From sequence record OQ870555.1: a stretch of 64,000 nt of DNA; one strand, given 5' to 3'. Both the position numbers and the translations under genes were made by a program. The notes under the pieces are model-generated. The model made no database searches. It worked only from the letters and a program-made list of their open reading frames with translations, and was not told the origin of the DNA. Positions 41,072 through 62,217 of the stretch are shown in pieces; position 1 is the first letter of the stretch; every line of letters begins with the position of its first letter. The stretch is from Escherichia phage PECP14.

Positions 41072-41100
41072 TTGCTTACTGAGTGAAATTCAAATATAAT
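41072..41100 (+). promoter_or_regulatory. early promoter module
   Basis: TTGCTT-17 nt-TATAAT, then ..ATAAATTGGAGACACTT-ATG. Confidence 0.65.
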
Positions 41101-41124
41101 ATATTTTATAAATTGGAGACACTT

Positions 41125-41379
41125 ATGGGACTCTTTAAAAAGAAAGTTTATTTAACACAAAGTCAAGAACGCAGGTTCTTAGCTCTGTCTCAGTATTACC
41201 ATTTACCTTTCGATCATTTCATAGAACGGGCGTTAGAACAATTCCTAGAAAAGGAATTAAGGGCAATTAGACCTGAACCGCCAAGAGCACCAAATGATGC
41301 ACAGAGAGGTCATCCACGTATCCCACCTATGCCGCCAGTTCCACCAGCGACTAGGGTCATTATAGAAGGTGATAAATAA
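41125..41379 (+). CDS. hypothetical protein, possible ribbon-helix-helix DNA-binding protein with Pro-rich tail
   Basis: ATG at 41125 (MGLFKKKVYLTQSQERRF...) downstream of the promoter; C-terminal PEPPRAPND...PPMPPVPP. Confidence 0.5.
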   Translation: MGLFKKKVYLTQSQERRFLALSQYYHLPFDHFIERALEQFLEKELRAIRPEPPRAPNDAQRGHPRIPPMPPVPPATRVIIEGDK

Positions 41380-41648
41380 TGTCTATTCTTTTATCTGCTT
41401 TAGAAGCAAAGCAAAATACTATTGCTAGTATTAAAAAGGAAGTAATTGATCTGGAATCACTTATCGCCGTAGAAATCGATAAAGCCATTAAAGATAAAGA
41501 ATTTAACTGCCACATCCAGGGACTGACTGAATACTCAGAAAACGCTAGAAATAGCGTTATGCAAAAACTTAGCAAACTAGGTTATGTTGTAGAAGCTAAG
41601 TATGAACAGCGTGAAGGTTTTTGGCTTGAAATTGATTGGAGCAAATAA
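41379..41648 (+). CDS. hypothetical protein
   Basis: 89 aa ORF coupled by TAATG to the upstream gene. Confidence 0.5.
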   Translation: MSILLSALEAKQNTIASIKKEVIDLESLIAVEIDKAIKDKEFNCHIQGLTEYSENARNSVMQKLSKLGYVVEAKYEQREGFWLEIDWSK

Positions 41649-42124
41649 TGTCGGTTTTCCACATATATACAGATGGTGCATGTAAAGGCAATCCTGGTTT
41701 AGGTGCGTGGGGATTTGTTGTCTATAATGATAATGATGATCGTATTGGCTCTAAATCTGGCTTTAGCCCTAAAACTACTAATAACGAAATGGAACTTACT
41801 GCAATTGTAGAAGTTCTTCGTTGGTCTACTAAGAAAGATAATCGTCCAGTAATTATCTACACTGATTCTGCTTACTGCAAAAATGGTATGGAAAGCTGGA
41901 TGTGGTCTTGGCAGAAGAAAGGCTGGAAGAAGGGAGATGGTGAAACTCCTCTCAATTTAGAACTCTGGCAAGAAGCGTTTAAACTAACTCAACAGTATAT
42001 TAATTTCCATGATACTAACCCAACCTTTGTTAAGGTTAAAGGTCACTCAGGTATTCGTGGTAATGAAGAAGTTGATGCTCTATGCAATACTGTAATTACT
42101 GAGCAAGAACTTGATGAGATGTAA
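41648..42124 (+). CDS. rnhA: ribonuclease H (RnhA-like)
   Basis: N-terminus HIYTDGACKGNPG, then ELTAI..., ...YTDS..., ...GHSG...NEEVD; ATG at 41648 with RBS GGAG. Confidence 0.8.
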   Translation: MSVFHIYTDGACKGNPGLGAWGFVVYNDNDDRIGSKSGFSPKTTNNEMELTAIVEVLRWSTKKDNRPVIIYTDSAYCKNGMESWMWSWQKKGWKKGDGETPLNLELWQEAFKLTQQYINFHDTNPTFVKVKGHSGIRGNEEVDALCNTVITEQELDEM

Positions 42125-42144
42125 TAAATAAATTAAAAATTCAC

Positions 42145-42173
42145 TTGCTTAAAGCCCTCGAATTTAGTATAAT
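42145..42173 (+). promoter_or_regulatory. early promoter module
   Basis: TTGCTT-17 nt-TATAAT upstream of the 92-aa gene. Confidence 0.65.
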
Positions 42174-42200
42174 ATTCGTATTGAAAGTGAGGAGGGCTTT

Positions 42201-42479
42201 ATGCGAATTTACAACTCAAATTCATTAGGATTTAAACCTTTGAGAAAACGCGCACAATCTCCGCGTCAGATCAGAAAGGCAAATATTGGTGAGCCAGAAA
42301 CTAGGCTTCCACCACCTCCGGAGCAACGTCTAGTTTACCTAGACGAAGAATTAGCCGAAAGGGAACGCAAAGCTCAAGAAGAAATTGAGCGTAAGAAACT
42401 ATGTACTGCTCCTGCATATAATAAGGGTGGTTATCAGTACGTTTCCAGTGAGGAACAAGCTAAGATGATCGGCAGATAA
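42201..42479 (+). CDS. hypothetical protein
   Basis: 92 aa ORF with RBS GGAGGG. Confidence 0.5.
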   Translation: MRIYNSNSLGFKPLRKRAQSPRQIRKANIGEPETRLPPPPEQRLVYLDEELAERERKAQEEIERKKLCTAPAYNKGGYQYVSSEEQAKMIGR

Positions 42480-42495
42480 TTTTTAAAAAATTCAT

Positions 42496-42524
42496 TTGCT
42501 AAACGCTTCAAAATTTCGTATAAT
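42496..42524 (+). promoter_or_regulatory. early promoter module
   Basis: AAAAATTCATTTGCTAAACGCTTCAAAATTTCGTATAAT. Confidence 0.65.
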
Positions 42525-42563
42525 ATATCTCATAAATTGATTAACAAAAAAGGAAAACAAATA

Positions 42564-43079
42564 ATGGCTAAGCAGAAAAACGCAAAAACTCAGGCAGCTC
42601 CGGCAGTTAAAACTTTCGCTCAGACCGAAGCCAATCGTAAGGCTCGTCTGGAACGTCATCTGCGTAAGCATCCTACTGATGCTCAGGCTCAGACTGCCCT
42701 GAAGTCTGCGGCTCCGGTTCGCCAGAAGCCGAAGGCCAAGAACTCTACTCGCGCAACTGCTAAGCAGGTTGTGTTCATCAAGGGTGAAGGTCATAAGTCT
42801 GTACCGGTAACTCTGAGCTTTAACGGCGGTGCTGAGATGTTCGCCCGCAACGGTATGGCTCTGAAAGACTACGAAAAAGCAGTCAATCAGAAGCGTAAGC
42901 CAATGGCTGACGTAATACGTGAATCCCGTGGACAGTTTGGCTCCGTTAAACCGAATATTTTCGGTGTAGAGTATAGCCGTGACAACGTTCGCGCTCTGTG
43001 CTACGGTATCGGTATTAAGTTTACTGGTGCTTCTGATCGTAAATCCGCTAAACCTACTCGTAAGCGTAAAGCGAAGTAA
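42564..43079 (+). CDS. hypothetical basic protein (171 aa)
   Basis: ATG at 42564 (MAKQKNAKTQ...) with RBS AAAAGGAAAAC; Lys/Arg-rich ends. Confidence 0.55.
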   Translation: MAKQKNAKTQAAPAVKTFAQTEANRKARLERHLRKHPTDAQAQTALKSAAPVRQKPKAKNSTRATAKQVVFIKGEGHKSVPVTLSFNGGAEMFARNGMALKDYEKAVNQKRKPMADVIRESRGQFGSVKPNIFGVEYSRDNVRALCYGIGIKFTGASDRKSAKPTRKRKAK

Positions 43080-43140
43080 TGATTGATGGGGCGAAAGCCC
43101 CATATACTAACTCTTTCTCTGACTAATTAAGGATATTTTT

Positions 43141-43356
43141 ATGTTCTCTAAGAAACCACGTTCCGTTACTGAAATCGTTGCTTCCTTTACCACTATTACT
43201 GATGAACTTCAAGCTCGTATTGAAGCTGACCAGAAAACTGCTGCTGATATTCAGAAACAGCAGGAAGAACTCGCTCTGAAACTGGCTGAAACCAATAAGA
43301 GTGAAAAATCTGCTCAAACTATTAAGGAAAATATCCTTAAACTGCTGGACAAGTAA
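43141..43356 (+). CDS. hypothetical coiled-coil protein
   Basis: 71 aa ORF, ATG start. Confidence 0.5.
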   Translation: MFSKKPRSVTEIVASFTTITDELQARIEADQKTAADIQKQQEELALKLAETNKSEKSAQTIKENILKLLDK

Positions 43357-43364
43357 TTTAAATC

Positions 43365-43640: not shown

Positions 43641-44342
43641 ATGAAATTCAAGCCCTTTGGTATGCTGGACATTGAATCTCTAGGTACTCCAGGAAATTGC
43701 GGTACTACTCATATTGCAATGCCTTCTTTCGCTTTTGTAGCGATGCACGGAATTGATAAAGATCCTGATCTGGTATTCGTTACTCTAGACGTTCAAGATC
43801 AGCTTAATGCGGGTGCTAAGGTAACTGCCTCTACTATTGCATTCTGGATGGATCAAGCTAAAAACAGTCCATCTGCGCTCCATATTATGGAGGCTCTAAA
43901 TGGTCGTAATCCTAAACTGATTGCCTTCCGTGATGGTAAGCATCACTGCACTAATGACGTAGGCTCTAATTATGCTGCCTTCTCTATGGCTCAGAACATT
44001 ATGGAATTGTCTCTAGGAGATAATGCTCTGTATTACGGCAATGGCCCAGAGTTTGATATGACAATCTACTCTGCAAATACGTTCCATGCCGGAACCCATG
44101 AAGAAATAGTTCCGTGGAAATTCTGGAACTTAGGTAACGTTCGATCTTTCCGTAATCAGTGGATGCAAGCTGGTTATAGCTATAAAGATCTAGAAGCCGA
44201 AGGTGCTAGCTGGGCAAAAGCTAAAATGGAAAAGATGGACACCATTCGTTATGGAATCTATCCTGTGAAGCATGATCCAGCATTCGATGCTTTAGTTGAA
44301 AGTTATTGTGTAGCCGTCATGATCGAAAAAATCAAAATTTGA
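43641..44342 (+). CDS. DEDDh-family 3'-5' exonuclease-like protein
   Basis: 233 aa; Exo I MLDIESLG, Exo II YYGNGPEFDMTIY, Exo III KHDPAFDALVESY (H-x4-D). Confidence 0.65.
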   Translation: MKFKPFGMLDIESLGTPGNCGTTHIAMPSFAFVAMHGIDKDPDLVFVTLDVQDQLNAGAKVTASTIAFWMDQAKNSPSALHIMEALNGRNPKLIAFRDGKHHCTNDVGSNYAAFSMAQNIMELSLGDNALYYGNGPEFDMTIYSANTFHAGTHEEIVPWKFWNLGNVRSFRNQWMQAGYSYKDLEAEGASWAKAKMEKMDTIRYGIYPVKHDPAFDALVESYCVAVMIEKIKI

Positions 44343-44343
44343 T

Positions 44344-44372
44344 TTGCTTTCAGCTCCAAAATTCTGTATAAT
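44344..44372 (+). promoter_or_regulatory. early promoter module
   Basis: TTGCTT-17 nt-TATAAT, then ..ATAAATTTGAGAGAACAACAAAAGGAAAACAATT-ATG. Confidence 0.65.
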
Positions 44373-44412
44373 ATATTCATAAATTTGAGAGAACAACAAA
44401 AGGAAAACAATT

Positions 44413-45288: not shown

Positions 45289-45672
45289 TAATTTAAAAGA
45301 CTAGTAAATCGGTAGACGAAAGCCCAAGCATCTTACCTCGCAGCAGCGGTTGAAATACGAGGTTAAATAAGACCGCTGACCATACTATAAAGTATAATCT
45401 ATTGGAGATTATGTTTATTACATCAGACATTTAATCTGACACGTAAAAACAAAAGGTCGTTGGTAGTACCAACACAACTTCAAAGATCAACGCTCAAGTA
45501 TGAAAGCTGAAAAGTTAAAAGCACTCAAACTTCTAACCTTCTAAAGCTAAAAGATGCAAAGTATTCGTTGATGATTCAAACCCTAGATCAAAGGTACATG
45601 GCTCATAAGATATGGCCTGTGGCGCCTCTAGGCTGTTTATCGGTTTACTAGTCTCTCAATTTAAAAATGTAT

Positions 45673-45701
45673 TTGCTAATTAGTTTAGTTTTCTGTATAA
45701 T
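45673..45701 (+). promoter_or_regulatory. early promoter module
   Basis: TTGCTA-17 nt-TATAAT, then ..TTTAAATTGATGAGACGAGG..ATG. Confidence 0.65.
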
Positions 45702-45731
45702 ATATTTTTAAATTGATGAGACGAGGCTATT

Positions 45732-46049
45732 ATGATTTTTCATATTCTGATTGATGATGTGCGTAACCTTCATGGAATGGACATTATCATTCGAACCCCC
45801 GAAGCCGCTGTTGAGTTTCTGAATAAAACCGATACCACAGGTCATTTCGTTTATATGGATAACGATCTGGCTGTAGATGGTATGGAAGGTTATCAAATTC
45901 TTCGTTTACTCCTAGAATTTGGTCAGAGACCCAAGAAAGTGGTACTAGTAACCTCGAACCCAGTAGCTAAAGAGACCATGCGTAATGATCTCTTAGACGA
46001 AGGGTATCAAGAAAGCCCTAATCGTATTGAGTACGATTGGCCGGAGTAA
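45732..46049 (+). CDS. hypothetical protein, possible receiver (CheY-like) fold
   Basis: 105 aa; alternating hydrophobic/acidic pattern (IFHILIDDV...YMDNDLAVDGMEGYQILRLL...VVLVTSNP) resembles a stand-alone receiver domain. Inference only. Confidence 0.5.
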   Translation: MIFHILIDDVRNLHGMDIIIRTPEAAVEFLNKTDTTGHFVYMDNDLAVDGMEGYQILRLLLEFGQRPKKVVLVTSNPVAKETMRNDLLDEGYQESPNRIEYDWPE

Positions 46050-46054: not shown

Positions 46055-46504
46055 ATGAAGGCAGCTTTGCTTTTAATAGCTGCCCTAACCTATAGCTTCA
46101 ATAGTCATGCGACCTACGACTCAAAGCAGATTGATTGCATTGCAAAAAATATCTACTTCGAAGCACGAGGTGAGGGCACTAAAGGAATGATCGCAGTTGC
46201 ACAGGTTACTAAAAACCGTGTTAACTCTGGTACTTTTCCTGATTCTTACTGTAAAGTAGTATATCAGTCTAACCAGTTCTCTTGGGTGGCCAAGAGACCA
46301 AAAGTTGATAAAACCGATGAGGCTTGGCAAGTTGCTAAGAATTTAGCTAGAGTGATATACTACGTTGATTTACCACAAGATCCAACACATGGAGCGTTAT
46401 ACTTCCATAGTGGTAAAGATAAACCGTACTGGACAAAGAAGTTTAAGAAAACAACGAAGATTCAAGGCCATACGTTTTACAAGCCTGTGGTTAAGAAAAC
46501 TTAA
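46055..46504 (+). CDS. secreted cell-wall hydrolase, SleB/Hydrolase_2-like
   Basis: ATG at 46055; signal peptide MKAALLLIAALTYSFNSHA; domain ...CIAKNIYFEARGEGTKGMIAVAQVTKNR...SYCKVVYQSNQFSW.... Confidence 0.65.
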   Translation: MKAALLLIAALTYSFNSHATYDSKQIDCIAKNIYFEARGEGTKGMIAVAQVTKNRVNSGTFPDSYCKVVYQSNQFSWVAKRPKVDKTDEAWQVAKNLARVIYYVDLPQDPTHGALYFHSGKDKPYWTKKFKKTTKIQGHTFYKPVVKKT

Positions 46505-46513
46505 AAAATTCGA

Positions 46514-46542
46514 TTGCTTAAAGCCTTAAATTTCTGTATAAT
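46514..46542 (+). promoter_or_regulatory. early promoter module
   Basis: TTGCTT-17 nt-TATAAT, then ..ATAAATTAATGAGAGGAAGCG..ATG. Confidence 0.65.
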
Positions 46543-46573
46543 ACTTTCATAAATTAATGAGAGGAAGCGAAAT

Positions 46574-46744
46574 ATGAAATCAGTTGTAATTATTGGTGTT
46601 AATACTCGTGGTATCCGTACTACGAAAACAGTTAAAACTACTAACGTTGCTGAAATTACTACAAACCCTAAGAAGTTTGATTTCGCCAAAGTCTCGGCAG
46701 TTATGACAGAACAATCTTTTAACCAAGCACTGGGAATTAAATAA
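46574..46744 (+). CDS. hypothetical small protein (56 aa)
   Basis: Not in the supplied track (under 60 aa); ATG with RBS GAGAGGAAG; coupled by TAATG to the next gene. Confidence 0.4.
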   Translation: MKSVVIIGVNTRGIRTTKTVKTTNVAEITTNPKKFDFAKVSAVMTEQSFNQALGIK

Positions 46745-47193
46745 TGGAAGAGAATATTCTAGATGTTTTGCGTAGGGCTTTGCAGGAATCTAAGGTTGAT
46801 GGTTCTGATAAAGAAGTAGCTAAAAGCTACCAGACCATAATCGGAGATCTTCAGCGTGTTGATAAAGACTTCATTACTTCTGAACAGTTTGTATCTTATC
46901 TAAAAGCTCAACTGAAAAGCATTAATCAGACGAAAGCTAAACTTCACGGTCAAGACCTTGATAATTATAGCTTGCAGTCTGCTCAGTATGAATATATACT
47001 GAACAAATGGTTACAACAGTATCTGCCGCCTCAGCTTTCTGATTCTGAGATTCGCAAATACTTTGCAGAATTAGTTAAGTTGAACCCTGGGATTACGAAG
47101 GGTATGCTGATGAAAGCGATTAAGGAAGAATTCCCTGGTCGTTATGATGGTGGTATTGCTGCTCAAGTTGCTGGCGAATTCAATAAAAATTGA
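46744..47193 (+). CDS. GatB/YqeY-domain protein
   Basis: 149 aa; ...NKWLQQYLPPQLSDSEIRKYFAELVKLNPGITKGMLMKAIKEEFPGRYDGGIAAQVAGE... matches the YqeY pattern (yLPqqLs.eE...GRaDG). Confidence 0.6.
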   Translation: MEENILDVLRRALQESKVDGSDKEVAKSYQTIIGDLQRVDKDFITSEQFVSYLKAQLKSINQTKAKLHGQDLDNYSLQSAQYEYILNKWLQQYLPPQLSDSEIRKYFAELVKLNPGITKGMLMKAIKEEFPGRYDGGIAAQVAGEFNKN

Positions 47194-47194
47194 T

Positions 47195-47223
47195 TTGCTA
47201 AACGCTTCAAAATTCTGTATAAT
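47195..47223 (+). promoter_or_regulatory. early promoter module directing transcription into the ORF-free segment
   Basis: TTGCTA-17 nt-TATAAT; the -35 overlaps the YqeY-like stop codon. Confidence 0.65.
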
Positions 47224-48057
47224 AGATTCATAAATTAGAGAACAGCGAGCCGATTACGCTGAGTGAGTTTAGTGATTCCTAATAGGATAGCTATTCCACT
47301 GAATAGAGTCGGTGAGTTGGAGACTAGTAAGTACTCTGAGAGAGGCTACGAGCTAACGCTTATTGCTATTGATAGGGAACTGAAAATCTGCGGAAAACTC
47401 GGGAGCTGTCCCGAAATCTCGTAAACTCTTCTCTAGTTTATGTTAGTGGGGTGTCGAACTGACTTATGTGATAACACTGCCAGATGCTCACAGGCTGACA
47501 TTGAGCTTTACTGCTCCTTCTGGAAAGAATCGGATAACTCGGGCTTATACCGGATAAGCATTCGCTGCTGGAGTACATACTATGACGGTTCAGGAGGTAC
47601 GCCACCTGATCAGTATTAGGTTAGAATCGAAACAGCTAAACCACGAGGAAACCTGACGGCCTCAACCAAACTCGGAACTCGGGATCACTGCCTAGTGTGT
47701 ACCCCGTTTAACCTGAGACTAGGCATCCAGCTTCGCATCGAAAATCGGAGGTGCGATTCTAACAGACCGCGTAACTATGAGAGTGGGAAACGCTGACATG
47801 AGAGATGTCACTAATGGTGCCCAATAGTACAGGTAATTCGCGATAATTCCTGTTGAGCGGCAGCAGTAGGCTGGGAGTCATGACCTAAGCCTAACCGAGT
47901 TCTTCACATACGGAGAACATAACCACAAAGTCACCCTGACTTAAACTGGAAGATATTGTCTGACGGAAGGGCTGCAGAGCTTAATCTGAGGGGGCTGACC
48001 CTACCTACCGTCGGGTATCTTTAAGAGCTTTTATAAGAGTTCTTAAAAATACCTAAA
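47224..48057 (+). ncRNA. candidate large structured non-coding RNA (ORF-free, promoter-driven, ends at tRNA-Arg)
   Basis: No ORF of 60 aa or more in any frame between 47194 and 48158; visibly more G+C-rich than flanking DNA; recurring AACTCGG(G) motif and several short hairpins. Identity unknown. Confidence 0.4.
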
Positions 48058-51076: not shown

Positions 51077-51273
51077 CTCCTAGTATATAGAAAATGTGTG
51101 TCTCTTTGATCACTCATCTATAACATATACTTTACACTACCCCAGCGAAAATGTCAAGGGGTCTTTAAAAATTGCCCCCGGATTTTTAGTGGGATAACAA
51201 TTTCTGGACCTCACCACTCACCTGCTACCCTTAAGTGCCCTGCGATTTTCCACTAAAAAGTTTAAAAATTCGA

Positions 51274-51302: not shown

Positions 51303-51332
51303 ATATTTATAAATTTGAGAGAGGAATCAAAT

Positions 51333-52388: not shown

Positions 52389-52389
52389 T

Positions 52390-53067
52390 ATGACTAACTA
52401 TCTTGTAAATGACTTTAAAAACTGGAAACCTTTGGAATATCTGTGGCTGTTTATAGCAGTCGCCTTTATTAGTTTAGCTAACTATAATGGTACAGCTCTA
52501 GATTGGGCTACTGCAATAACCAACGTGGTTTGTGTTATTCTGGTTGCAAAAGGACGTGTTTCCAACTATATTTGGGGCTTAGTTGGTGTTCTTACCTATG
52601 GTATTACAGCTTTAAACGCAGATCTTTATGGTAACGCTGCACTAAACCTGCTATACTACGTTCCTATGCAGTTTTATGGAATGTACTTATGGCATAAAAA
52701 TAAGCCAAGTAATCTGCCAGATGTTCCAACTAAGGTTCTGACTAAAGCCCAAGCTCTGCTGACTCTAGGGATTCTAGCAGTAGCCACGTTAGGGTATGGT
52801 AGTTTCTTAGCTACTACGGCTGATCCATTCCCAATGTTGGATGCATTTACTGCGGTAGGTAGTGTGATCGCTATGTGGCTTATGGTTAAGCAGTATGCCG
52901 AGCAGTGGCTGATCTGGATTGCTATTAACATTGGTACTGTATATATTTGGCTTGTAACTGCCCAGTCTACGGGTGCTTCTTATGCAATCCTAGCAATGTG
53001 GCTGGTGTTCTTAGGTAACTCTATTATGGGAGCCTATAAAGGCTACTTTGTAAGAGTTAACAAATAA
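52390..53067 (+). CDS. pnuC: nicotinamide riboside transporter (PnuC-like)
   Basis: About 225 aa with multiple TM helices and a WxxxxP-type region; start overlaps the nadR stop (TAATATG). Confidence 0.7.
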   Translation: MTNYLVNDFKNWKPLEYLWLFIAVAFISLANYNGTALDWATAITNVVCVILVAKGRVSNYIWGLVGVLTYGITALNADLYGNAALNLLYYVPMQFYGMYLWHKNKPSNLPDVPTKVLTKAQALLTLGILAVATLGYGSFLATTADPFPMLDAFTAVGSVIAMWLMVKQYAEQWLIWIAINIGTVYIWLVTAQSTGASYAILAMWLVFLGNSIMGAYKGYFVRVNK

Positions 53068-53074: not shown

Positions 53075-53100
53075 ATAGCCCTCTAAGCGAGGGCTATTAT
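53075..53100 (+). terminator. rho-independent terminator after pnuC
   Basis: ATAGCCCTC-TAAGC-GAGGGCTAT followed by TATAC. Confidence 0.65.
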
Positions 53101-53114
53101 ACAGAAATTTTCAC

Positions 53115-53143
53115 TTGCTTTATATAGAAAATTTCTGTATAAT
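53115..53143 (+). promoter_or_regulatory. early promoter module
   Basis: TTGCTT-17 nt-TATAAT, then ..ATAAATTTGAGAGAGGAATCAAAC-ATG. Confidence 0.65.
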
Positions 53144-53173
53144 ATATTTATAAATTTGAGAGAGGAATCAAAC

Positions 53174-53470
53174 ATGAAACACATTGTACTTGCATTGACT
53201 CTAGTATCTACTTCTGTATTTGCTGCTCCACAACAGGAACTTTGTCAAGTTCAAGTTTGTAATAAGCTAGAACGATTTACTCTAGACATTTGGTCGCACA
53301 TTAAAGATAATATGGGTGAACAGTGTTTTGATATTGTTCTGCCAAAAGAACAAGCTGTTCCTGGGGCTGTTCTCAGCTCAGAATCACGTTGGTGGCAGGG
53401 TTCTTCTATCAACCCAACTAAGAAGTCAGTGACACGTATCAAACAAGTATATCAGTGCAATGTTCAGTAA
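53174..53470 (+). CDS. secreted small protein with signal peptide
   Basis: ATG at 53174; MKHIVLALTLVSTSVFAAPQQ signal peptide, several Cys. Confidence 0.5.
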   Translation: MKHIVLALTLVSTSVFAAPQQELCQVQVCNKLERFTLDIWSHIKDNMGEQCFDIVLPKEQAVPGAVLSSESRWWQGSSINPTKKSVTRIKQVYQCNVQ

Positions 53471-53478
53471 AATTTCAC

Positions 53479-53507
53479 TTGCTTAATGCCGAAATTTTCT
53501 GTATAAT
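53479..53507 (+). promoter_or_regulatory. early promoter module upstream of the tRNA-Ser/tRNA-Met pair
   Basis: TTGCTT (53479-53484), 17-nt spacer, TATAAT (53502-53507). Confidence 0.65.
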
Positions 53508-53521
53508 ATATTCATAAATTC

Positions 53522-53615
53522 GGAAGATTAACCCTAAAGGTAAGGGAGCTGTTTGCTAAACAGCCAGTAGCTGTGGAGACACGGTGTGCCAGTTCGAATC
53601 TGGCATCTTCCTCCA
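53522..53615 (+). tRNA. tRNA-Ser (anticodon GCU), class II
   Basis: Acceptor GGAAGAT/ATCTTCC, anticodon arm GCTGT-TTGCTAA-ACAGC, long variable arm, T-arm GCCAG-TTCGAAT-CTGGC, CCA. Confidence 0.75.
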
Positions 53616-54684: not shown

Positions 54685-54714
54685 CTCCTCCAAGCAGAAA
54701 TTTTAAAAATGTAC

Positions 54715-54744
54715 TTGCTTTTTACTTAAGATTTCTGCTATAAT
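54715..54744 (+). promoter_or_regulatory. early promoter module
   Basis: TTGCTT-18 nt-TATAAT, then ..ATAAATTGATGAAGGAGTTAACGA-ATG. Confidence 0.6.
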
Positions 54745-54774
54745 AGTTATATAAATTGATGAAGGAGTTAACGA

Positions 54775-55050
54775 ATGTCAAAACGTGTTACTGCAACTGG
54801 TGTTGAAAGTGCTGTTTGTAAATCCTGGGGTGGCTGGGAAGGTGAGATTGAATGGCTTTATTTCTACGATGTAGAACTTCTGCCGGAAGTCAAAGCTAAA
54901 TGTGTGGAAGCTGGTATGGCTCCTGATGCAAAGGCTGATATCGAAATCACCATGACTAAGCTAGAAGGTCGTGTAATTACGCTCAATGATGATTATGAAG
55001 AAGTGTTCGAGCTTCCATTCAAACTGAGTGTCACCCCTAGCTTCGAGTAA
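54775..55050 (+). CDS. hypothetical protein
   Basis: 91 aa ORF with RBS GAAGGAG. Confidence 0.5.
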   Translation: MSKRVTATGVESAVCKSWGGWEGEIEWLYFYDVELLPEVKAKCVEAGMAPDAKADIEITMTKLEGRVITLNDDYEEVFELPFKLSVTPSFE

Positions 55051-55086
55051 CTGATATAGCACTGAGCAAGTTCTTTAAAATTTGAC

Positions 55087-55115
55087 TTGCTCAGTCCTTC
55101 AAAACTTGATATAAT
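55087..55115 (+). promoter_or_regulatory. early promoter upstream of a four-tRNA cluster
   Basis: TTGACTTGCTC...TGATATAAT; -35 read as TTGCTC, 17-nt spacer. Confidence 0.6.
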
Positions 55116-55179
55116 AGTTATCTAATTTGGAAAACATATTTAAAAGTGTTTAAACTAGTATTTGAATATTTCTAAATAT

Positions 55180-55537: not shown

Positions 55538-55810
55538 ATGCATCCTGAAAACTTCTTTATTTACTGTGCGGATAAGTCACTGAAACGCAGAATTAACAAA
55601 GTCTATCATTATCGTGCTAGTCAACAGCCTTATGTTTATGCTTTTGATGGAGAAACCATTCCACTAGAGCAGTTGGCTTGTGATTACATGGTATTGAAGA
55701 ACTTTGATGAGACAAAGATCTCAAGCGTTCATAATCGACAGAACCCATTAACGTGGAAGTATAAGAAGAAAAAGAAAGGCATCATATTTCTGAAAAATGT
55801 AGTTGCTTAA
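55538..55810 (+). CDS. hypothetical protein
   Basis: Track ORF starts at a TTG at 55523; ATG at 55538 follows RBS GAAGGAG. Confidence 0.5.
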   Translation: MHPENFFIYCADKSLKRRINKVYHYRASQQPYVYAFDGETIPLEQLACDYMVLKNFDETKISSVHNRQNPLTWKYKKKKKGIIFLKNVVA

Positions 55811-55831
55811 CCGCTTAAAGTTCTGTATAAT
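55803..55831 (+). promoter_or_regulatory. early promoter module
   Basis: TTGCTT-17 nt-TATAAT; overlaps the stop of the upstream gene. Confidence 0.65.
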
Positions 55832-55860
55832 TATTACATAAATTGAACTGGAGAAGCAAC

Positions 55861-56085
55861 ATGACAGAACAAGAATTGAAAGAACGTAAGCTGGTAATGC
55901 TTCGCTTACTAAACATTTTCTCTGGTATGGATGGTGGTATTGACTTCGTTAATCTACGTTGCTTTGTAGAAGAAGCAGAAGGTGAGGCTATCACTAGGAT
56001 TCTTAAACATATGGGTTTGTTATTAGATGTTGCTAATGTGGCTACTCAATATAAGCTCGAAGATTTACCGGAGCGTGTTAAATGA
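55861..56085 (+). CDS. hypothetical protein
   Basis: ATG at 55861 (MTEQELKERK) with RBS GGAGAAGC. Confidence 0.5.
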   Translation: MTEQELKERKLVMLRLLNIFSGMDGGIDFVNLRCFVEEAEGEAITRILKHMGLLLDVANVATQYKLEDLPERVK

Positions 56086-57361: not shown

Positions 57362-57609
57362 AATTTAGGTTTCTGCTTCCTAGAGAACGAACTCCTAGAT
57401 AAACAAGGTGATGAGTTTCCGGCCGGTTCTAGTCGCTGAAAATCCTCCCGACCAGGTAGGTGTAAGTAAACGAAAGTTTACTTATTAAGTAAGTCCGACA
57501 CATCGGCGGGTGTGTTCTAGTACTTAAAGAAGGTCTAGCAAACTTTCTCGCTAGCATGAGTTGATAGCTCGGTGACTTACCTAATAAGTAAATTTATTAA
57601 AAAATGTAG

Positions 57610-57638
57610 TTGCTATTTAGCTTAATTCTCTGTATAAT
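57610..57638 (+). promoter_or_regulatory. early promoter module upstream of tRNA-Pro / tRNA-CAU
   Basis: TTGCTA-17 nt-TATAAT. Confidence 0.65.
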
Positions 57639-57670
57639 ATATTTTATAAAGTGAGTTAACAAAGAATATT

Positions 57671-57748
57671 CTCCGTGTAGCTCAGTTTGGCCAGAGCGTT
57701 TCGTTTGGGGCGATAGGGTCGGGGGTTCAAATCCTCCCACGGAGACCA
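57671..57748 (+). tRNA. tRNA-Pro (anticodon UGG)
   Basis: Acceptor CTCCGTG/CACGGAG, D-stem GCTC/GAGC, loop TTTGGGG, T-arm GGGGG-TTCAAAT-CCTCC, CCA. Confidence 0.75.
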
Positions 57749-58660: not shown

Positions 58661-59020
58661 TTGCAAATGCAATTATCAAGCAAGGTTCAAGGCTATTTCG
58701 GACATGTAACAATGGAGTTCGCTATCTCTAAAGGTTGGGACTTCGAACAAGATTTAGCTGAGTTCTACAAAGATATTGATCTGAACGTACCGTACATGGG
58801 ACTCTCAACTGGTCAAGAGATCACAGAAGCCGACGTGTTCAAGGCAAGTCAAGGTGAGGTAACACCTAGTTTTGCCGAGTTCTGGTTAGGTATCACACTG
58901 AAAGAAGATGCACCGGATAGTGGAGTACTAATGACTAGTATGCACTCTGGAAGCTCTGATTACCTTTTCGTTAGTGACGTTAAGGAAATACAAGAAATCT
59001 GCAAAAATGTACTTGCTTGA
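58661..59020 (+). CDS. hypothetical protein (TTG start per track; ATG 6 nt downstream)
   Basis: 119 aa ORF with RBS AAGGAATTG. Confidence 0.5.
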   Translation: MQMQLSSKVQGYFGHVTMEFAISKGWDFEQDLAEFYKDIDLNVPYMGLSTGQEITEADVFKASQGEVTPSFAEFWLGITLKEDAPDSGVLMTSMHSGSSDYLFVSDVKEIQEICKNVLA

Positions 59021-59041
59021 TGCTTAATTTCTTGTTATAAT
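59013..59041 (+). promoter_or_regulatory. early promoter module directing transcription into an ORF-free 0.36-kb segment
   Basis: TTGCTT-17 nt-TATAAT; overlaps the stop codon of the upstream gene. Confidence 0.6.
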
Positions 59042-59401
59042 ATTTATATAAATTGATGTGAAAATAGCTGCCTAGATATTAGGTGTATGACGTCTACACT
59101 AGCAGAGCTACCGAAAAAAGAGATCCTCAGGATAAACGCCGTAGCAAAATTAGTCTGATATCCATCAATTTAGTTCACTAAGGTATTAGCTCGACCTAGG
59201 ACTGGCTGCCAAAAAGCACGGTTGCAATTAGACCCATAATGGCGGGGGATACTTTGCAAGAAGTTCTAGATTAGTCCACTAGATTCAGCGGCAACTGAAT
59301 AGTGTATCGGGTTTGTGGAGAGCGGTTATCCTCTACTGGCTAATGTCTGAGGGTAATACGCACACCGAGCTAATAGCCTTAGTAAACTAGAAGGAATATC
59401 T

Positions 59402-60745: not shown

Positions 60746-60749
60746 ATAA

Positions 60750-61141: not shown

Positions 61142-61148
61142 AATATTG

Positions 61149-61222
61149 CGTCCTTATTTCAATGGAAAGAATGTAAAGCTACGAACTTTACGATCGGGGT
61201 TCGATTCCCTGAGGATGCACCA
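61149..61222 (+). tRNA. tRNA-Arg (anticodon ACG)
   Basis: Acceptor GCGTCCT/AGGATGC, anticodon arm TAAAG-CTACGAA-CTTTA, T-arm CGGGG-TTCGATT-CCCTG, CCA. Confidence 0.75.
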
Positions 61223-61246
61223 ATTAACTTATATAGGAACTAAAAT

Positions 61247-61447
61247 ATGGCTGATTTCTGCAAAGAATGCTCTATCGATATGTGGGGCAAAGATACTGGT
61301 GATCTTTCTGGTCTGATTACAGAAGCCGAAGTTAAAGAAGGCTATGGTGCTGTTGTAATCTGTGAAGGTTGTGGTATTATTCGTGTTGATCATAATGGTA
61401 AACGTCTAGAAGAACCAGATCCAATTGCCACGGTTCCTGTAGAATAA
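61247..61447 (+). CDS. hypothetical small Cys-containing protein
   Basis: 66 aa; CKEC...CEGCG; RBS ATAGGAAC. Confidence 0.5.
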   Translation: MADFCKECSIDMWGKDTGDLSGLITEAEVKEGYGAVVICEGCGIIRVDHNGKRLEEPDPIATVPVE

Positions 61448-61454
61448 AAATTAT

Positions 61455-61530
61455 TGGGATGTAGATCAATTGGCAGATCGTCGGCCTCTGACTCCGAAGG
61501 TTCCACGTTCGATCCGTGGCATCCCAGCCA
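61455..61530 (+). tRNA. tRNA-Gln (anticodon CUG)
   Basis: Acceptor TGGGATG/CATCCCA with U1-A72, loop CTCTGAC, T-arm CCACG-TTCGATC-CGTGG, CCA. Confidence 0.7.
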
Positions 61531-61536
61531 AATACT

Positions 61537-61612
61537 TGGAGAGTAGTGTAACGGTTAGCACAACGGCCTTTGACTCCGTTAATGGTAGGTTCGATTCCTC
61601 CTTCTCCAGCCA
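61537..61612 (+). tRNA. tRNA-Gln (anticodon UUG)
   Basis: Acceptor TGGAGAG/TTCTCCA with U1-A72, loop CTTTGAC, T-loop TTCGATT, CCA. Confidence 0.7.
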
Positions 61613-61618
61613 ATTTAT

Positions 61619-61693
61619 GCGTGATTAGTTCAGTGGCTAGAATAACTGGCTTCCAACCAGTAGACACGAGTTCGACTCTCGTATCCCGCACCA
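61619..61693 (+). tRNA. tRNA-Gly (anticodon UCC)
   Basis: Acceptor GCGTGAT/ATCCCGC, anticodon arm ACTGG-CTTCCAA-CCAGT, T-arm ACGAG-TTCGACT-CTCGT, CCA. Confidence 0.75.
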
Positions 61694-61709
61694 AATATAA
61701 GGAAACGTT

Positions 61710-61931
61710 ATGCACGTTTTTGAGTTTCGTAATAAAAACCCTAATAGACGAGTTTTAATTATTGGTGAAACATATCGAGCTTATGAGCAAGAAGATGGTT
61801 CGGTTTTATTAAATGATGAAAAGCAAGGCTATAGTTTTCATCCAGAAGAAACATATGAGGAATTTCGTACTAAGTTTCTTTTACCAGACTGGCTAGCAAT
61901 AGCTGAGCAAAGAGAACCCGAAGATGGCTGA
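61710..61931 (+). CDS. hypothetical protein
   Basis: 73 aa ORF with RBS AAGGAAACGTT. Confidence 0.5.
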   Translation: MHVFEFRNKNPNRRVLIIGETYRAYEQEDGSVLLNDEKQGYSFHPEETYEEFRTKFLLPDWLAIAEQREPEDG

Positions 61932-62098
61932 TAATCTAAAGCTAAAGGTAGATAAACAAATGAAGTGCGTTGAGGTTGAGTTGGGTGAAGAACGTTTAAA
62001 ACTCTCCTTCGAATTCTTACAACAGTTGGCTATGACAGTAATGTCTGATAAGTCTCCTGTATTTGAAAAAGAAATTCCGTTGAAATAACGGGTTTATT

Positions 62099-62173
62099 GC
62101 TCCTAAAGCATTGCTGGCAATGCAGTTGCCTTGTAAGCATCTGAACCGGGTTCGATTCCTGGTGGGAGCACCA
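62099..62173 (+). tRNA. tRNA-Thr (anticodon UGU)
   Basis: Acceptor GCTCCTA/TGGGAGC, loop CTTGTAA, T-arm CCGGG-TTCGATT-CCTGG, CCA; one mismatch in the anticodon stem. Confidence 0.65.
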
Positions 62174-62188
62174 AATTTAAAAATTCAT

Positions 62189-62217
62189 TTGCCTTCTCTC
62201 TTATTTCTTGTTATAAT
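62189..62217 (+). promoter_or_regulatory. early promoter module
   Basis: TTGCCT-17 nt-TATAAT, then ..TATAAATTAATGAGAGGGAAGGCAA-ATG. Confidence 0.6.

What the first reader, a model, noticed from the sequence alone, without database searches (positions are those of the whole stretch)
41072..62217. One strong promoter plus RBS module reiterated at least 17 times across the early/tRNA region
A near-identical unit of roughly 60 bp recurs before most plus-strand genes and tRNA clusters (for example 41072, 42145, 42496, 44344, 45673, 46514, 47195, 51274, 53115, 53479, 54715, 55803, 57610, 59013, 62189). It comprises an AT-rich upstream block (AAAATTCA), TTGCTT/TTGCTA, a 17-bp spacer, TATAAT, then TATATTTATAAATTGAGAGAGG. 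Minus-strand copies lie near 21717 and 23078. This matches the classic strong T5 early promoter architecture. The repeats are also substrates for homologous recombination and may explain the modular gene content.
Basis: partly seen in the sequence, partly recalled or inferred. Interest (0 to 1): 0.45.

Follow-up and report, generated by a model that had tools for sequence, protein, structure and literature searches.

The report
Phage T5-type early promoters, rediscovered
The repeated ~65-bp unit is the well-known family of strong early promoters of T5-like phages, here in an Epseptimavirus genome; this is ordinary for the group, apart from one gene cassette whose presence or absence is bounded by two of these promoters.

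Summary
All 17 listed coordinates are exact. TTGCTW-N16-18-TATAAT occurs 20 times against 0.19 expected, and a matrix scan finds 27 modules: 9 on the minus strand (13152-32213) and 18 on the plus strand (34380-62189).

The window is a T5-like phage, 99% identical to phages Ob_P and GreteKellenberger. Of the 27 modules, 25 have a positional counterpart in phage T5. The same matrix finds 30 sites in T5, and 29 coincide with promoters annotated in the T5 RefSeq record (P-N25, P-N26, P-K28a, P-H207, P11, P13-P15 and others). So these are T5 early sigma-70 promoters: A-tract, -35, 17-bp spacer, TATAAT, AT-rich discriminator and N25-type initial transcribed sequence. A ribosome-binding site is present only where a protein gene follows.

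"Near-identical repeats" is overstated. Modules within the window are 57-60% alike, whereas orthologues in T5 are 87% alike, so this is a selected motif and not recent copies.

The recombination idea is only partly borne out. Breakpoints against seven relatives are no denser in modules than in other non-coding DNA; tRNA gene edges dominate. One clean case exists: a 1,842-bp nadR-pnuC cassette bounded by a 50-bp repeat of two promoters, and absent in phage STWB21. Already known; low interest.

The parts
13090..13167 (-). Promoter module, -35 TTGTCA at 13152, 18-bp spacer. Orthologue of T5 P31B. CDS start 21 nt after the predicted +1.
13190..13267 (-). Promoter module, -35 TTGGCA at 13252. Orthologue of T5 P31A. 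Lies in tandem upstream of module 13152.
17671..17748 (-). Promoter module, -35 TTGCCG at 17733, 18-bp spacer. Orthologue of the T5 promoter at 70987-71061, upstream of the DNA polymerase gene.
21683..21760 (-). Promoter module, -35 at 21745. Orthologue of T5 P-K28a, 99% identical over -50..+25.
23049..23126 (-). Promoter module, -35 at 23111. Orthologue of the T5 promoter at 65284-65358. A terminator-like hairpin lies directly upstream.
24266..24343 (-). Promoter module, -35 at 24328. Orthologue of T5 P-N26, 96% identical.
25298..25375 (-). Promoter module, -35 at 25360. Orthologue of T5 P-N25, 93% identical. Highest matrix score in the window (72 bits).
28839..28916 (-). Promoter module, -35 TTGCAG at 28901. 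Orthologue of the T5 promoter at 58999-59073. Followed by a long stretch without an ORF before the primase/helicase ORF.
32151..32228 (-). Promoter module, -35 at 32213. Orthologue of the T5 promoter at 55708-55782. A terminator hairpin lies directly upstream.
34365..34442 (+). Promoter module, -35 TTGCCT at 34380. Orthologue of the T5 promoter at 53638-53712 (phoH operon).
37962..38039 (+). Promoter module, -35 at 37977. Orthologue of the T5 promoter at 50061-50135. A terminator lies upstream. The ATG of the HNH ORF sits at the predicted +1.
41057..41134 (+). Promoter module, -35 at 41072. A terminator lies upstream. No matrix-level orthologue in T5.
42130..42207 (+). Promoter module, -35 at 42145. 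Orthologue of the T5 promoter at 46337-46411.
42481..42558 (+). Promoter module, -35 at 42496. Orthologue of T5 P-H207.
44329..44406 (+). Promoter module, -35 at 44344. Orthologue of the T5 promoter at 44393-44467.
45658..45735 (+). Promoter module, -35 at 45673. Orthologue of the T5 promoter at 43067-43141.
46499..46576 (+). Promoter module, -35 at 46514. Orthologue of T5 P-D/E33.
47180..47257 (+). Promoter module, -35 at 47195. Orthologue of T5 P16-17. Leads into about 830 nt without a convincing ORF and then tRNA-Arg; T5 annotates stable RNAX there.
51259..51336 (+). Promoter module, -35 at 51274. Orthologue of T5 P15a, 96% identical. Drives the nadR-like gene. Its -16..+27 part (51287-51336) is the left copy of a 50-bp direct repeat.
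51333..53067 (+). nadR-like NMN adenylyltransferase/kinase gene (51333-52388) and pnuC NMN transporter gene (52375-53067). This is the cargo of the promoter-bounded 1,842-bp indel.
53100..53177 (+). Promoter module, -35 at 53115. A terminator hairpin lies upstream. No T5 orthologue. Shares a 39-bp exact run with module 51274. The right copy of the direct repeat is 53129-53178.
53464..53541 (+). Promoter module, -35 at 53479. Orthologue of T5 P15b. No SD. tRNA-Ser starts 8 nt downstream of the predicted +1.
54700..54778 (+). Promoter module, -35 at 54715, 18-bp spacer. Orthologue of T5 P15c.
55072..55149 (+). Promoter module, -35 TTGCTC at 55087. Orthologue of T5 P14a. tRNA-Tyr starts 58 nt downstream of the predicted +1.
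55788..55865 (+). Promoter module, -35 at 55803. Orthologue of T5 P14b.
57595..57672 (+). Promoter module, -35 at 57610. Orthologue of T5 P13a. tRNA-Pro starts 26 nt downstream of the predicted +1.
58998..59075 (+). Promoter module, -35 at 59013. Orthologue of T5 P13b. Leads into DNA without an ORF; T5 annotates stable RNA2H there.
62174..62251 (+). Promoter module, -35 TTGCCT at 62189. Orthologue of T5 P11.

Best explanation
The 27 units are the early-class promoters of a T5-like phage (genus Epseptimavirus). They are read by unmodified host RNA polymerase carrying sigma-70.

Each unit has the following anatomy:
- An A-tract at about -45..-41. It resembles the proximal UP-element subsite and probably contacts the alpha C-terminal domain (inferred).
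- A -35 hexamer TTGCTW, a 17-bp spacer (18 bp in 3 modules) and a perfect -10 TATAAT.
- A very AT-rich discriminator, ATATTy or ATTTAT, with 14% G+C.
- A conserved purine-rich initial transcribed sequence starting ATAAATT(T)GA(G/T)GAG.

The initial transcribed sequence has been studied in the T5 N25 promoter. That promoter binds polymerase extremely tightly and is rate-limited at escape, and its native sequence is tuned for fast escape.

In 20 modules the transcribed block runs on to a protein-coding start. In 14 of them the start codon lies 18-25 nt from the predicted +1. Thirteen of the 20 have a Shine-Dalgarno core (GAGG-type) within +1..+20. There the unit works as a combined promoter, leader and ribosome-binding site. 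Of the other 7 modules, three lead straight into tRNA genes (8, 26 and 58 nt downstream of the predicted +1), three lead into long stretches without an ORF, and one (37977) has the ATG of a homing-endonuclease ORF at the predicted +1. None of the 7 has a Shine-Dalgarno core.

The modules form a conserved scaffold of transcription starts. Their order and position are the same in 8 relatives, with one module per ~1.3 kb, while the small genes between them vary.

What is shown: motif, statistics, orthology to annotated and named T5 promoters, and the selective-constraint profile. What is inferred: actual initiation, strength and timing in this phage.
For: Identity of the genome: 99% identical to Obesumbacterium phage Ob_P and Escherichia phage GreteKellenberger (Demerecviridae, Epseptimavirus).

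Motif statistics: 20 strict matches against 0.19 expected. 27 matrix hits at 28.9 bits or more, against a shuffle maximum of 1.2 bits.

Match to T5:
- The T5 RefSeq record annotates 75-bp promoter features at the syntenic positions.
- 25 of 27 modules have a positional T5 counterpart.
- The window matrix finds 30 sites in T5 positions 9,000-93,000, and 29 coincide with annotated promoters, including P-N25, P-N26, P-K28a, P-H207, P-D/E33, P11, P13a/b, P14a/b, P15a-c, P16-17 and P31A/B. The late promoter P-G25 is not hit.

Constraint, measured as the mismatch rate between window and T5 orthologues:
- -10 hexamer: 0%
- +1..+10: 4%
- -35 hexamer: 5%
- A-tract: 7%
- discriminator: 8%
- spacer: 17%
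- flanks: 21-26%

A transcription-level role for the +1..+7 block: ATAAATT is kept in modules that lead into tRNAs or non-coding DNA (5.3 of 7 positions, against 6.05 of 7 in CDS-leading modules). The SD core is found in 65% of CDS-leading modules and in none of the others.

Literature:
- All T5 early promoters identified share ATATT in the discriminator; 11 of 19 in-vitro promoters plus 4 more were seen by primer extension in infected cells (PMC7472727).
- N25 is escape-limited, its native initial transcribed sequence gives the fastest escape, and replacing +3..+20 (antiDSR) cuts full-length RNA about 10-fold (PMC12464699).

Distribution: the combined motif occurs in IMG/VR contigs of 96-128 kb, the size of T5-like genomes, apart from one of 73 kb and one of 14.5 kb. 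The order of modules is conserved in 8 relatives.
Against: - No transcription data exist for this phage, so activity, strength and timing are extrapolated from T5.
- Only 9 of 27 discriminators are exactly ATATT.
- Six modules have non-TTGCT -35 hexamers.
- In T5 only 11 of 19 in-vitro promoters gave primer-extension signals in vivo (PMC7472727), so some sites may be weak or silent.
- A generic sigma-70 consensus scan of 41-61 kb shows no excess (45 sites against 45.5 expected). The signal therefore rests on the family-specific motif.
Confidence: 0.93

Rival explanations
1. In addition to promoter function, the modules serve as portable recombination joints. Homologous exchange between two modules, or between a module and a cassette carrying one, inserts, deletes or swaps the genes between them. 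This would make them a T5-group analogue of the PeSL cassettes of T4-like phages and a main cause of the mosaic early/tRNA region.
For: One clean case:
- Window 48599-51336 aligns to phage STWB21 positions 1-2737 of locus L129, and window 53129-53951 aligns to 2688-3512.
- The two alignments overlap by 50 bp, which corresponds to the repeated -16..+27 part of modules 51274 and 53115.
- The result is a precise 1,842-bp nadR-pnuC indel.
- The same junction is present in phages HMD-P2, AZ21 and NG_S8.
- Modules 51274 and 53115 share a 39-bp exact run, against a null maximum of 29 in 200 simulations.

Broader signals:
- Two replacement junctions have both ends in modules: 51336/53493 and 57654/59003.
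- 10 of 16 modules in 38.7-63.8 kb carry a breakpoint, and breakpoints are 2.4-fold enriched against a uniform expectation (p=0.006).
- Among 565 module instances in 129 loci, 130 have one flank matching the window and the other flank novel.
Against: - Breakpoints are not denser in modules than in other non-coding DNA (8.8 vs 13.5 per kb, p=0.93).
- tRNA gene edges hold 36 of 92 breakpoints, a 9.7-fold enrichment.
- Any conserved island in variable DNA would look like a boundary in an alignment.
- Only 1 of 565 module instances is a module-to-module hybrid, and that locus was fetched on purpose.
- Three other adjacent-pair junction searches gave no single-piece allele among the best-ranked records.
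- There is no homogenisation among paralogues: 57% identity against 87% for orthologues, and 24 of 25 modules have their positional orthologue as the closest T5 module.
- Published comparisons attribute most differences among T5-like genomes to homing-endonuclease genes (PMC10644984).
Confidence: 0.3
2. The conserved +1..+20 block is mainly something other than an escape-optimised transcribed sequence. It could be an operator for a phage-encoded regulator that shuts early transcription off, or an RNA-level signal such as a translational enhancer or a processing site.
For: - The +1..+10 block is as constrained as the -35 hexamer (4% vs 5% orthologue mismatch).
- It is shared by all early promoters and not matched at the late promoter P-G25.
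- A T5 RNA polymerase-binding protein, gpT5.026, acts weakly on the discriminator contact and shifts the balance between early and late transcripts (PMC7472727).
Against: - The effect of the N25 transcribed sequence on productive transcription is seen with pure host polymerase and no phage protein (PMC12464699).
- ATAAATT is retained in front of tRNAs, where translation is irrelevant.
- No inverted or direct repeat symmetry typical of operators was noticed by eye in the module alignment; it was not tested.
Confidence: 0.12
3. The units are a dispersed repeat family spread by recent duplication or by a mobile element, and their promoter-like appearance is secondary.
For: - Many copies share a long consensus (56.7 bits over 79 columns).
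- There are 10 pairs with exact runs of 20 nt or more, against 1.3 expected, although 10 was reached once in 200 simulations.
Against: - Pairwise identity matches independent draws from the column frequencies: observed maximum 0.69, against a null mean maximum of 0.647 with sd 0.016.
- Each copy has its own conserved orthologue in T5, and module order is conserved in 8 relatives.
- Conservation is concentrated exactly on the functional promoter elements.
- No terminal inverted repeats or target duplications were noticed; this was not specifically tested.
Confidence: 0.02

Closest known systems
Early promoters of bacteriophage T5 (P-N25, P-N26, P-K28a/b, P-H207, P-D/E33, P11-P16). These are the "T5 promoters" of Bujard and colleagues, and N25 is the basis of the pQE/pDS expression-vector promoter.
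   Same: - The anatomy is the same: A-tract near -43, TTGCTW, 17-bp spacer, TATAAT, AT-rich discriminator and an ATAAATTTGAGAGAGG-type initial transcribed sequence.
- The genomic positions are the same: 25 of 27 modules are syntenic, with 87% mean identity over -50..+25.
- The module at 25360(-) is the N25 orthologue, 93% identical.
   Different: - The host genome is an Epseptimavirus, not T5 itself.
- Two modules (41072, 53115) have no matrix-level counterpart in T5.
- The window module 53115 arose with, or next to, the nadR-pnuC cassette, which T5 lacks.
- No experimental mapping exists for this phage.
PeSL (promoter-early stem-loop) regulatory cassettes of T4-like phages (Arbiol et al. 2010, PMC2839356; PMC4122927)
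   Same: - Both are strong sigma-70-type early promoters scattered through a gene-variable region full of small ORFs.
- At least one cassette indel here is bounded by two copies of the promoter, as described for PeSLs.
   Different: - A terminator stem-loop is an integral part of a PeSL. Here only about 5-7 of 27 modules have a terminator-like hairpin directly upstream.
- Breakpoints are not specifically enriched in modules relative to other non-coding DNA.
- Mini-circles were not tested.
- Sequence relatedness between the two motif families was not tested.
Canonical strong E. coli sigma-70 promoters with UP elements (for example rrnB P1)
   Same: Both have a near-consensus -10 hexamer, an optimal 17-bp spacer and an A-rich block at about -45..-41. 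The comparison with UP-element subsites rests on my own knowledge.
   Different: - The -35 hexamer is TTGCTT and not TTGACA.
- The discriminator is AT-rich, whereas rRNA promoters have GC-rich discriminators.
- There is no TGn extended -10: the TG sits directly against TATAAT.
- The conserved transcribed sequence has no counterpart in rrnB P1.

Membership tests
T5 early promoter class (sigma-70 dependent) | -35 TTGCTW (or a close variant), a 17±1 bp spacer and -10 TATAAT | tested here: met
   27 of 27 modules have TATAAT. 20 have TTGCTW; the remaining seven are one TTGCTC and six that keep only TTG (TTGCCT twice, TTGCCG, TTGCAG, TTGGCA, TTGTCA). 24 have a 17-bp spacer and 3 have 18 bp.
T5 early promoter class (sigma-70 dependent) | A+T-rich block upstream of -35, around -43 | tested here: met
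   Columns -45..-41 are A in 16-18 of 19 seed sites. 22 of 27 modules have at least 4 A in -45..-41.
T5 early promoter class (sigma-70 dependent) | ATATT-type AT-rich discriminator, stated for all known T5 early promoters (PMC7472727) | tested here: met
   9 of 27 are exactly ATATT. All have at most 2 G/C in 6 nt, and mean G+C is 14% against 41% for the window. A second conserved variant, ATTTAT, also occurs in T5 P11, P13b and P-K28a.
T5 early promoter class (sigma-70 dependent) | N25-type initial transcribed sequence (downstream sequence region) starting ATAAATT | tested here: met
   The mean match to ATAAATT at +1..+7 is 6.05 of 7 in CDS-leading modules and 5.3 of 7 in the others. The orthologue mismatch rate at +1..+10 is only 4%.
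T5 early promoter class (sigma-70 dependent) | Positional orthology to promoters mapped or annotated in T5 | tested here: met
   25 of 27 modules are syntenic with T5 sites. 29 of the 30 matrix hits in T5 fall on annotated promoter features, many of them named from in-vitro work.
T5 early promoter class (sigma-70 dependent) | Initiation by host sigma-70 holoenzyme with early kinetics in infected cells | not testable with these tools
   This needs TSS mapping or in-vitro transcription. No genome-wide T5 TSS map was found in the held literature.
PeSL cassettes of T4-like phages | The promoter is coupled to an adjacent terminator stem-loop as one unit | tested here: not met
   The automated criterion flagged 5 of 27 modules: 32213, 37977, 41072, 45673 and 54715. 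Judged by eye, strong hairpins lie directly upstream of 23111, 28901, 32213, 37977, 41072 and 53115. Either way, about three quarters of the modules have none.
PeSL cassettes of T4-like phages | Copies flank the insertions, deletions and replacements that distinguish close relatives | tested here: inconclusive
   There is one precise module-to-module indel and two replacements with both ends in modules. There is no enrichment over other non-coding DNA, and only 1 hybrid among 565 module instances.
PeSL cassettes of T4-like phages | Excised mini-circles carrying one cassette | not testable with these tools
   This requires PCR or sequencing of phage lysates.
Extended -10 (TGn) promoters | TG at -15/-14, one base upstream of the -10 hexamer | tested here: not met
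   The common TG lies at -14/-13, directly abutting TATAAT. The scan tool reports "TG_before_second: no" for the four family members it lists.
Recently duplicated dispersed repeat or mobile element | Copies are more alike than a shared motif requires, and copies lack individual orthologues | tested here: not met
   Paralogue identity fits the column-resampling null, apart from one pair. Orthologues are 87% identical against 57% for paralogues, and for 24 of 25 modules the best T5 match is the positional orthologue.

The most novel reading that the evidence does not exclude
The early promoter modules of T5-like phages double as recombination joints that let small gene cassettes be inserted, deleted or exchanged while staying under early transcriptional and translational control. 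The 1,842-bp nadR-pnuC cassette, bounded by a 50-bp direct repeat of the promoter's -16..+27 segment and absent at exactly that repeat in STWB21, HMD-P2, AZ21 and NG_S8, would be the first documented example. That would extend the PeSL principle from T4-like myoviruses to Demerecviridae, using a promoter-leader-RBS unit rather than a promoter-terminator unit.
Probability: 0.3. Interest if true: 0.4.

Novelty: already known. Interest (0 to 1): 0.15.

Why it matters
The main finding matters little as a discovery. T5 early promoters have been catalogued since the 1980s, are annotated in the T5 RefSeq record, and underlie common expression vectors.

Three things have practical value:
- Most records of T5-like phages examined here carry no promoter annotation (only the T5 RefSeq record did). 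The matrix derived here separates true sites (28.9 bits or more) from shuffled sequence (1.2 bits or less), whereas a generic sigma-70 scan shows no signal at all.
- The constraint profile between Epseptimavirus and Tequintavirus orthologues gives independent evolutionary support that the A-tract, the discriminator and +1..+10 are functional parts of the promoter.
- The promoter-bounded nadR-pnuC indel is a concrete, testable lead on how accessory cassettes move in this phage group.

Tried and rejected
- **Generic sigma-70 and terminator scan of 41-61 kb.** It found 45 promoter-like sites against 45.5 expected. It is uninformative because TTGCTT matches only 4 of 6 positions of TTGACA.
- **Idea that the modules are recent copies.** Rejected by the column-resampling null and by the orthologue/paralogue comparison.
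- **Idea that module 53115 drives a homologue of T5.076, which would indicate a simple insertion upstream of it.** My first translation used the wrong frame, so the blastp was not a valid test. The correct ORF (53174-53470) starts MKHIVLALT..., resembles a signal peptide and has no Pfam match. It was never compared with T5.076 in the right frame, and at DNA level the window and T5 do not align across this interval. The locus looks like a replacement relative to T5, and it is a clean indel relative to STWB21.
- **Hybrid-junction searches for module pairs 53115>53479, 54715>55087 and 57610>59013.** The best rows were two-piece, meaning the normal arrangement, or covered less than 80%. No deletion allele was seen. 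For the first two pairs, lower-ranked single-piece alleles cannot be excluded.
- **Rfam search of the whole window.** Only tRNAs were found. Nothing explains the non-coding stretches downstream of modules 47195 and 59013.
- **Repeat search in the long leader after module 28901.** Nothing notable.
- **Gentz & Bujard 1985 (PMC214212).** Not held in the library, so statements about the original promoter set rest on the RefSeq annotation, on citing papers and on my own knowledge.
- **Search for a genome-wide T5 TSS map.** None found.

Full report

Yes. The strict pattern TTGCTW-N16-18-TATAAT occurs 20 times in the 64-kb window. The expectation from 100 dinucleotide-preserving shuffles is 0.19, with a maximum of 1. 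This includes the two minus-strand copies (21717-21745 and 23083-23111). It also includes 62189, which has the variant -35 TTGCCT and therefore escaped the strict pattern.

Aligning the 19 sites with 17-bp spacers gives a 79-column matrix carrying 56.7 bits. A two-block scan with that matrix, allowing 16-18 bp spacers, finds 27 distinct modules scoring 28.9-72 bits. Twenty shuffled strands never exceeded 1.2 bits.

- Minus-strand modules: 13152, 13252, 17733, 21745, 23111, 24328, 25360, 28901, 32213.
- Plus-strand modules: 34380, 37977, 41072, 42145, 42496, 44344, 45673, 46514, 47195, 51274, 53115, 53479, 54715, 55087, 55803, 57610, 59013, 62189.

Transcription therefore diverges from a point between nrdD and phoH, around 34.3 kb (inferred from synteny with T5).

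**2. Anatomy**

Positions are numbered from the +1 predicted by analogy with T5 N25, which is the 7th base after TATAAT (own knowledge of the N25 start site).

| Element | Position | Sequence and variation |
|---|---|---|
| A-tract | -45..-41 | at least 4 A in 22 of 27 modules |
| -35 hexamer | -35..-30 | TTGCTW in 20; one TTGCTC; six keep only TTG |
| Spacer | -29..-13 | 17 bp in 24 modules, 18 bp in 3; weak consensus ending TTCTG |
| -10 hexamer | -12..-7 | TATAAT, invariant |
| Discriminator | -6..-1 | ATATTy or ATTTAT; 14% G+C against 41% for the window |
| Initial transcribed sequence | from +1 | ATAAATT(T)GA(G/T)GAGAGG |

The TG that often precedes TATAAT abuts it directly, so this is not the canonical TGn extended -10.

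Twenty modules precede a protein-coding start. In 14 of them the start codon is 18-25 nt from the predicted +1. It is 33-34 nt away in two modules and 52-122 nt away in four. Of the seven remaining modules:
- Three lead directly into tRNA genes: 53479 to tRNA-Ser 8 nt downstream of the predicted +1, 57610 to tRNA-Pro 26 nt downstream, and 55087 to tRNA-Tyr 58 nt downstream.
- Three (47195, 59013, 28901) lead into long stretches without an ORF.
- One (37977) has the ATG of an HNH ORF exactly at +1.

The +1..+7 ATAAATT block is retained in those seven modules (5.3 of 7 positions, against 6.05 of 7 in CDS-leading modules). A Shine-Dalgarno core within +1..+20 is found in 65% of CDS-leading modules and in none of the seven. 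So the universal unit is promoter plus initial transcribed sequence. The RBS is an add-on where a protein gene follows.

**3. What it is**

The window is a T5-like phage. A 6-kb piece is 99.2% identical to Obesumbacterium phage Ob_P and 99.1% identical to Escherichia phage GreteKellenberger (Demerecviridae, Epseptimavirus). It is 80-90% identical to Tequintavirus genomes.

The window's plus strand corresponds to the minus strand of T5. The T5 RefSeq record (NC_005859) annotates 75-bp promoter features throughout the syntenic region. Many carry the names from the classical in-vitro work: P-N25, P-N26, P-K28a/b, P-H207, P-D/E33, P11, P13a/b, P14a/b, P15a-c, P16-17 and P31A/B.

Twenty-five of the 27 window modules have a counterpart at the syntenic T5 position. 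The matrix built only from the window finds 30 sites in T5 positions 9,000-93,000. Twenty-nine of them fall on annotated promoter features, and the 30th lies next to the feature labelled P-F30. The late promoter P-G25 and other differently built promoters are not hit. The module at 25360(-) is the orthologue of P-N25, 93% identical over -50..+25.

The combined motif occurs in IMG/VR almost only in contigs of 96-128 kb, the size of T5-like genomes; the exceptions are one of 73 kb and one of 14.5 kb. Module order and position are conserved in eight relatives.

These are therefore the early promoters of the T5 group, a class that is already known and annotated.

**4. How it most likely works**

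Host sigma-70 holoenzyme recognises the -35 and -10 hexamers at optimal spacing. The A-tract probably acts like a proximal UP subsite (inference, own knowledge).

The literature gives three relevant points:
- The AT-rich discriminator is the feature reported to distinguish T5 early promoters from late ones (PMC7472727).
- N25 forms an extremely stable open complex and is rate-limited at escape.
- Its native transcribed sequence gives the fastest escape, and replacing +3..+20 lowers full-length RNA about 10-fold with pure host enzyme (PMC12464699).

The evolutionary constraint measured here agrees with this. The table shows how often window and T5 orthologues differ in each segment.

| Segment | Mismatch rate |
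|---|---|
| -10 hexamer | 0% |
| +1..+10 | 4% |
| -35 hexamer | 5% |
| A-tract | 7% |
| Discriminator | 8% |
| Spacer | 17% |
| Flanks | 21-26% |

Activity, strength and timing in this particular phage are inferred, not shown. In T5 itself only 11 of 19 in-vitro promoters gave primer-extension signals in infected cells.

**5. Repeats or motif?**

The phrase "near-identical unit" overstates the similarity. Paralogous modules are 60% identical on average over -45..+20 (range 42-82%) and 57% over -50..+25. Resampling the alignment columns independently reproduces the observed spread: the observed maximum identity is 0.69, and the null mean maximum is 0.647 with sd 0.016.

Each module is far closer to its positional orthologue in T5 (mean 87%) than to any paralogue. 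For 24 of 25 modules the most similar T5 module is the positional orthologue. So there is no sign of recent duplication or concerted evolution.

Two sub-types are conserved between orthologues:
- TCTG-TATAAT-ATATTy-ATAAATTTGAGAG
- CTTGT-TATAAT-ATTTAT-ATAAATTGATGAG

The one clear outlier is the pair 51274/53115. They share a 39-bp exact run, whereas the longest run in 200 null simulations was 29.

**6. The recombination idea**

I aligned the window to T5, GreteKellenberger, INF11, GEC_vB_N7, HdH2, UTK0010 and HildyBeyeler and collected the ends of collinear homology blocks. In 38.7-63.8 kb there are 92 unique breakpoints.

- Eleven lie in modules, which cover 5.0% of the region. That is a 2.4-fold enrichment over a uniform expectation (p=0.006).
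- Per kilobase, modules (8.8) are no richer than other non-coding DNA (13.5; p=0.93).
- tRNA gene edges hold 36 of the 92 breakpoints, a 9.7-fold enrichment.

When a breakpoint falls in a module, it is typically the point where upstream homology ends, between about -4 and +27 relative to the predicted +1. In those cases the promoter stays and the downstream gene differs. Any conserved island embedded in variable DNA would give this picture, so these data alone do not show recombination at promoters.

A direct test was more informative. I built an artificial junction from the upstream half of module 51274 joined to the downstream half of module 53115 and its ORF. It is found as one contiguous piece, with 100% coverage and 95% identity, in Salmonella phages STWB21 and HMD-P2. 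It is found from query position ~121 onward in coliphages AZ21 and NG_S8.

The locus comparison confirms a precise indel:
- Window 48599-51336 aligns to STWB21 locus L129 positions 1-2737 at 96.9% identity.
- Window 53129-53951 aligns to positions 2688-3512.
- The two alignments overlap by 50 bp, which corresponds to the repeated -16..+27 segment (window 51287-51336 and 53129-53178).

The 1,842-bp unit carries a nadR-like NMN adenylyltransferase/kinase gene, the pnuC transporter gene, a terminator hairpin and the upstream half of promoter 53115. It is therefore present or absent exactly at a direct repeat formed by two promoter modules. This is the signature of homologous exchange between them, although the direction (insertion or deletion) is unknown.

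The case is not general. Three other adjacent pairs gave no such allele among the best-ranked records. Among 565 module instances in 129 loci of T5-like phages:
- 301 have both flanks as in the window.
- 76 have a novel downstream flank.
- 54 have a novel upstream flank.
- Only the STWB21 case joins the flanks of two different window modules.

Published comparisons attribute most local differences among T5-like genomes to homing-endonuclease genes (PMC10644984).

**7. Comparison with known systems**

The modules are members of the T5 early promoter class. All sequence-level defining features were tested and met, and only biochemical activity is untestable here.

They work somewhat like the PeSL cassettes of T4-like phages, which are strong early promoters scattered through a hyperplastic region and sometimes bound indels (PMC2839356). 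They are not PeSLs, because the integral terminator stem-loop is present at only about a quarter of the modules. They are not extended -10 promoters, and they are not a mobile repeat family.

**8. Verdict**

The main interpretation is correct but already known. The "near-identical repeat" framing and the claim that the repeats explain the modular gene content are only weakly supported, with one clean promoter-bounded cassette as the exception. Overall interest is low (0.15). The most novel reading still open is that promoter modules serve as recombination joints in T5-like phages. I give it about 0.3 probability and moderate interest if true.

Noticed in passing
window 51287-51336 and 53129-53178 (repeat); 51333-53067 (cargo): A 1,842-bp unit carrying a nadR-like gene, pnuC, a terminator and half a promoter is bounded by a 50-bp direct repeat of the promoter's -16..+27 segment. 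It is precisely absent in phages STWB21, HMD-P2, AZ21 and NG_S8. T5 has an unrelated gene (T5.076) between the same two flanking promoters, P15a and P15b.
   Followed up: yes
window 38012-38509 (+): The ATG of a 165-aa HNH_3 homing-endonuclease ORF (Pfam E=1.2e-16) is the 7th base after the TATAAT of module 37977. That is the predicted +1, which leaves no room for a Shine-Dalgarno sequence, so the mRNA may be leaderless or the true start may lie further downstream. The ORF is absent in GreteKellenberger, which has 28 nt there instead. T5 carries a different gene annotated as an HNH endonuclease (hegH) at the same spot, with no DNA-level similarity there.
   Followed up: partly
window 55446-55517 (+): Rfam finds a 29th tRNA (33.4 bits) that ARAGORN did not report. 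It is probably tRNA-Phe, judged by synteny with relatives in which tRNA-Phe follows tRNA-Trp.
   Followed up: no
window 53500-62720: The edges of tRNA genes are the dominant homology breakpoints against seven relatives: 36 of 92 unique breakpoints, a 9.7-fold enrichment. The small ORFs between tRNAs are the variable cassettes, and HNH endonuclease genes are inserted between adjacent tRNAs in some relatives (for example between tRNA-Tyr and tRNA-Glu in GreteKellenberger).
   Followed up: partly
window 47230-48057 and 59048-59400 (+): Modules 47195 and 59013 lead into stretches without convincing ORFs. In T5 these are annotated as stable RNAs of unknown function (RNAX, RNA2H). No Rfam family matches them.
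   Followed up: no
window 28380-28866 (-): Module 28901 is followed by a stretch of roughly 370-490 nt without an ORF before the primase/helicase-like ORF (25587-28499). A repeat search found no notable repeats in it.
   Followed up: partly
window 51129-51157 (-): A differently built promoter-like site, TTGACA-17-TAAAGT, faces away from module 51274 and heads the minus-strand gene block 49.4-51.1 kb. It lies where T5 annotates promoter P12 and is not matched by the early-promoter matrix.
   Followed up: no
window modules 21745, 23111, 54715, 59013, 62189 versus the rest: There are two sub-types of the module: ATTTAT+ATAAATTGATGAG and ATATTy+ATAAATTTGAGAG. The sub-type is the same in the T5 orthologues (P-K28a, 65304, P13b, P11). 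I did not examine whether it corresponds to the two early regulatory classes (Ea and Eb) mentioned in the literature.
   Followed up: no
window 41000-60999: A generic sigma-70 consensus scan shows no excess over shuffles (45 sites against 45.5 expected), even though 14 strong family-specific promoters lie in that stretch. Generic promoter predictors would therefore miss or dilute this class.
   Followed up: yes
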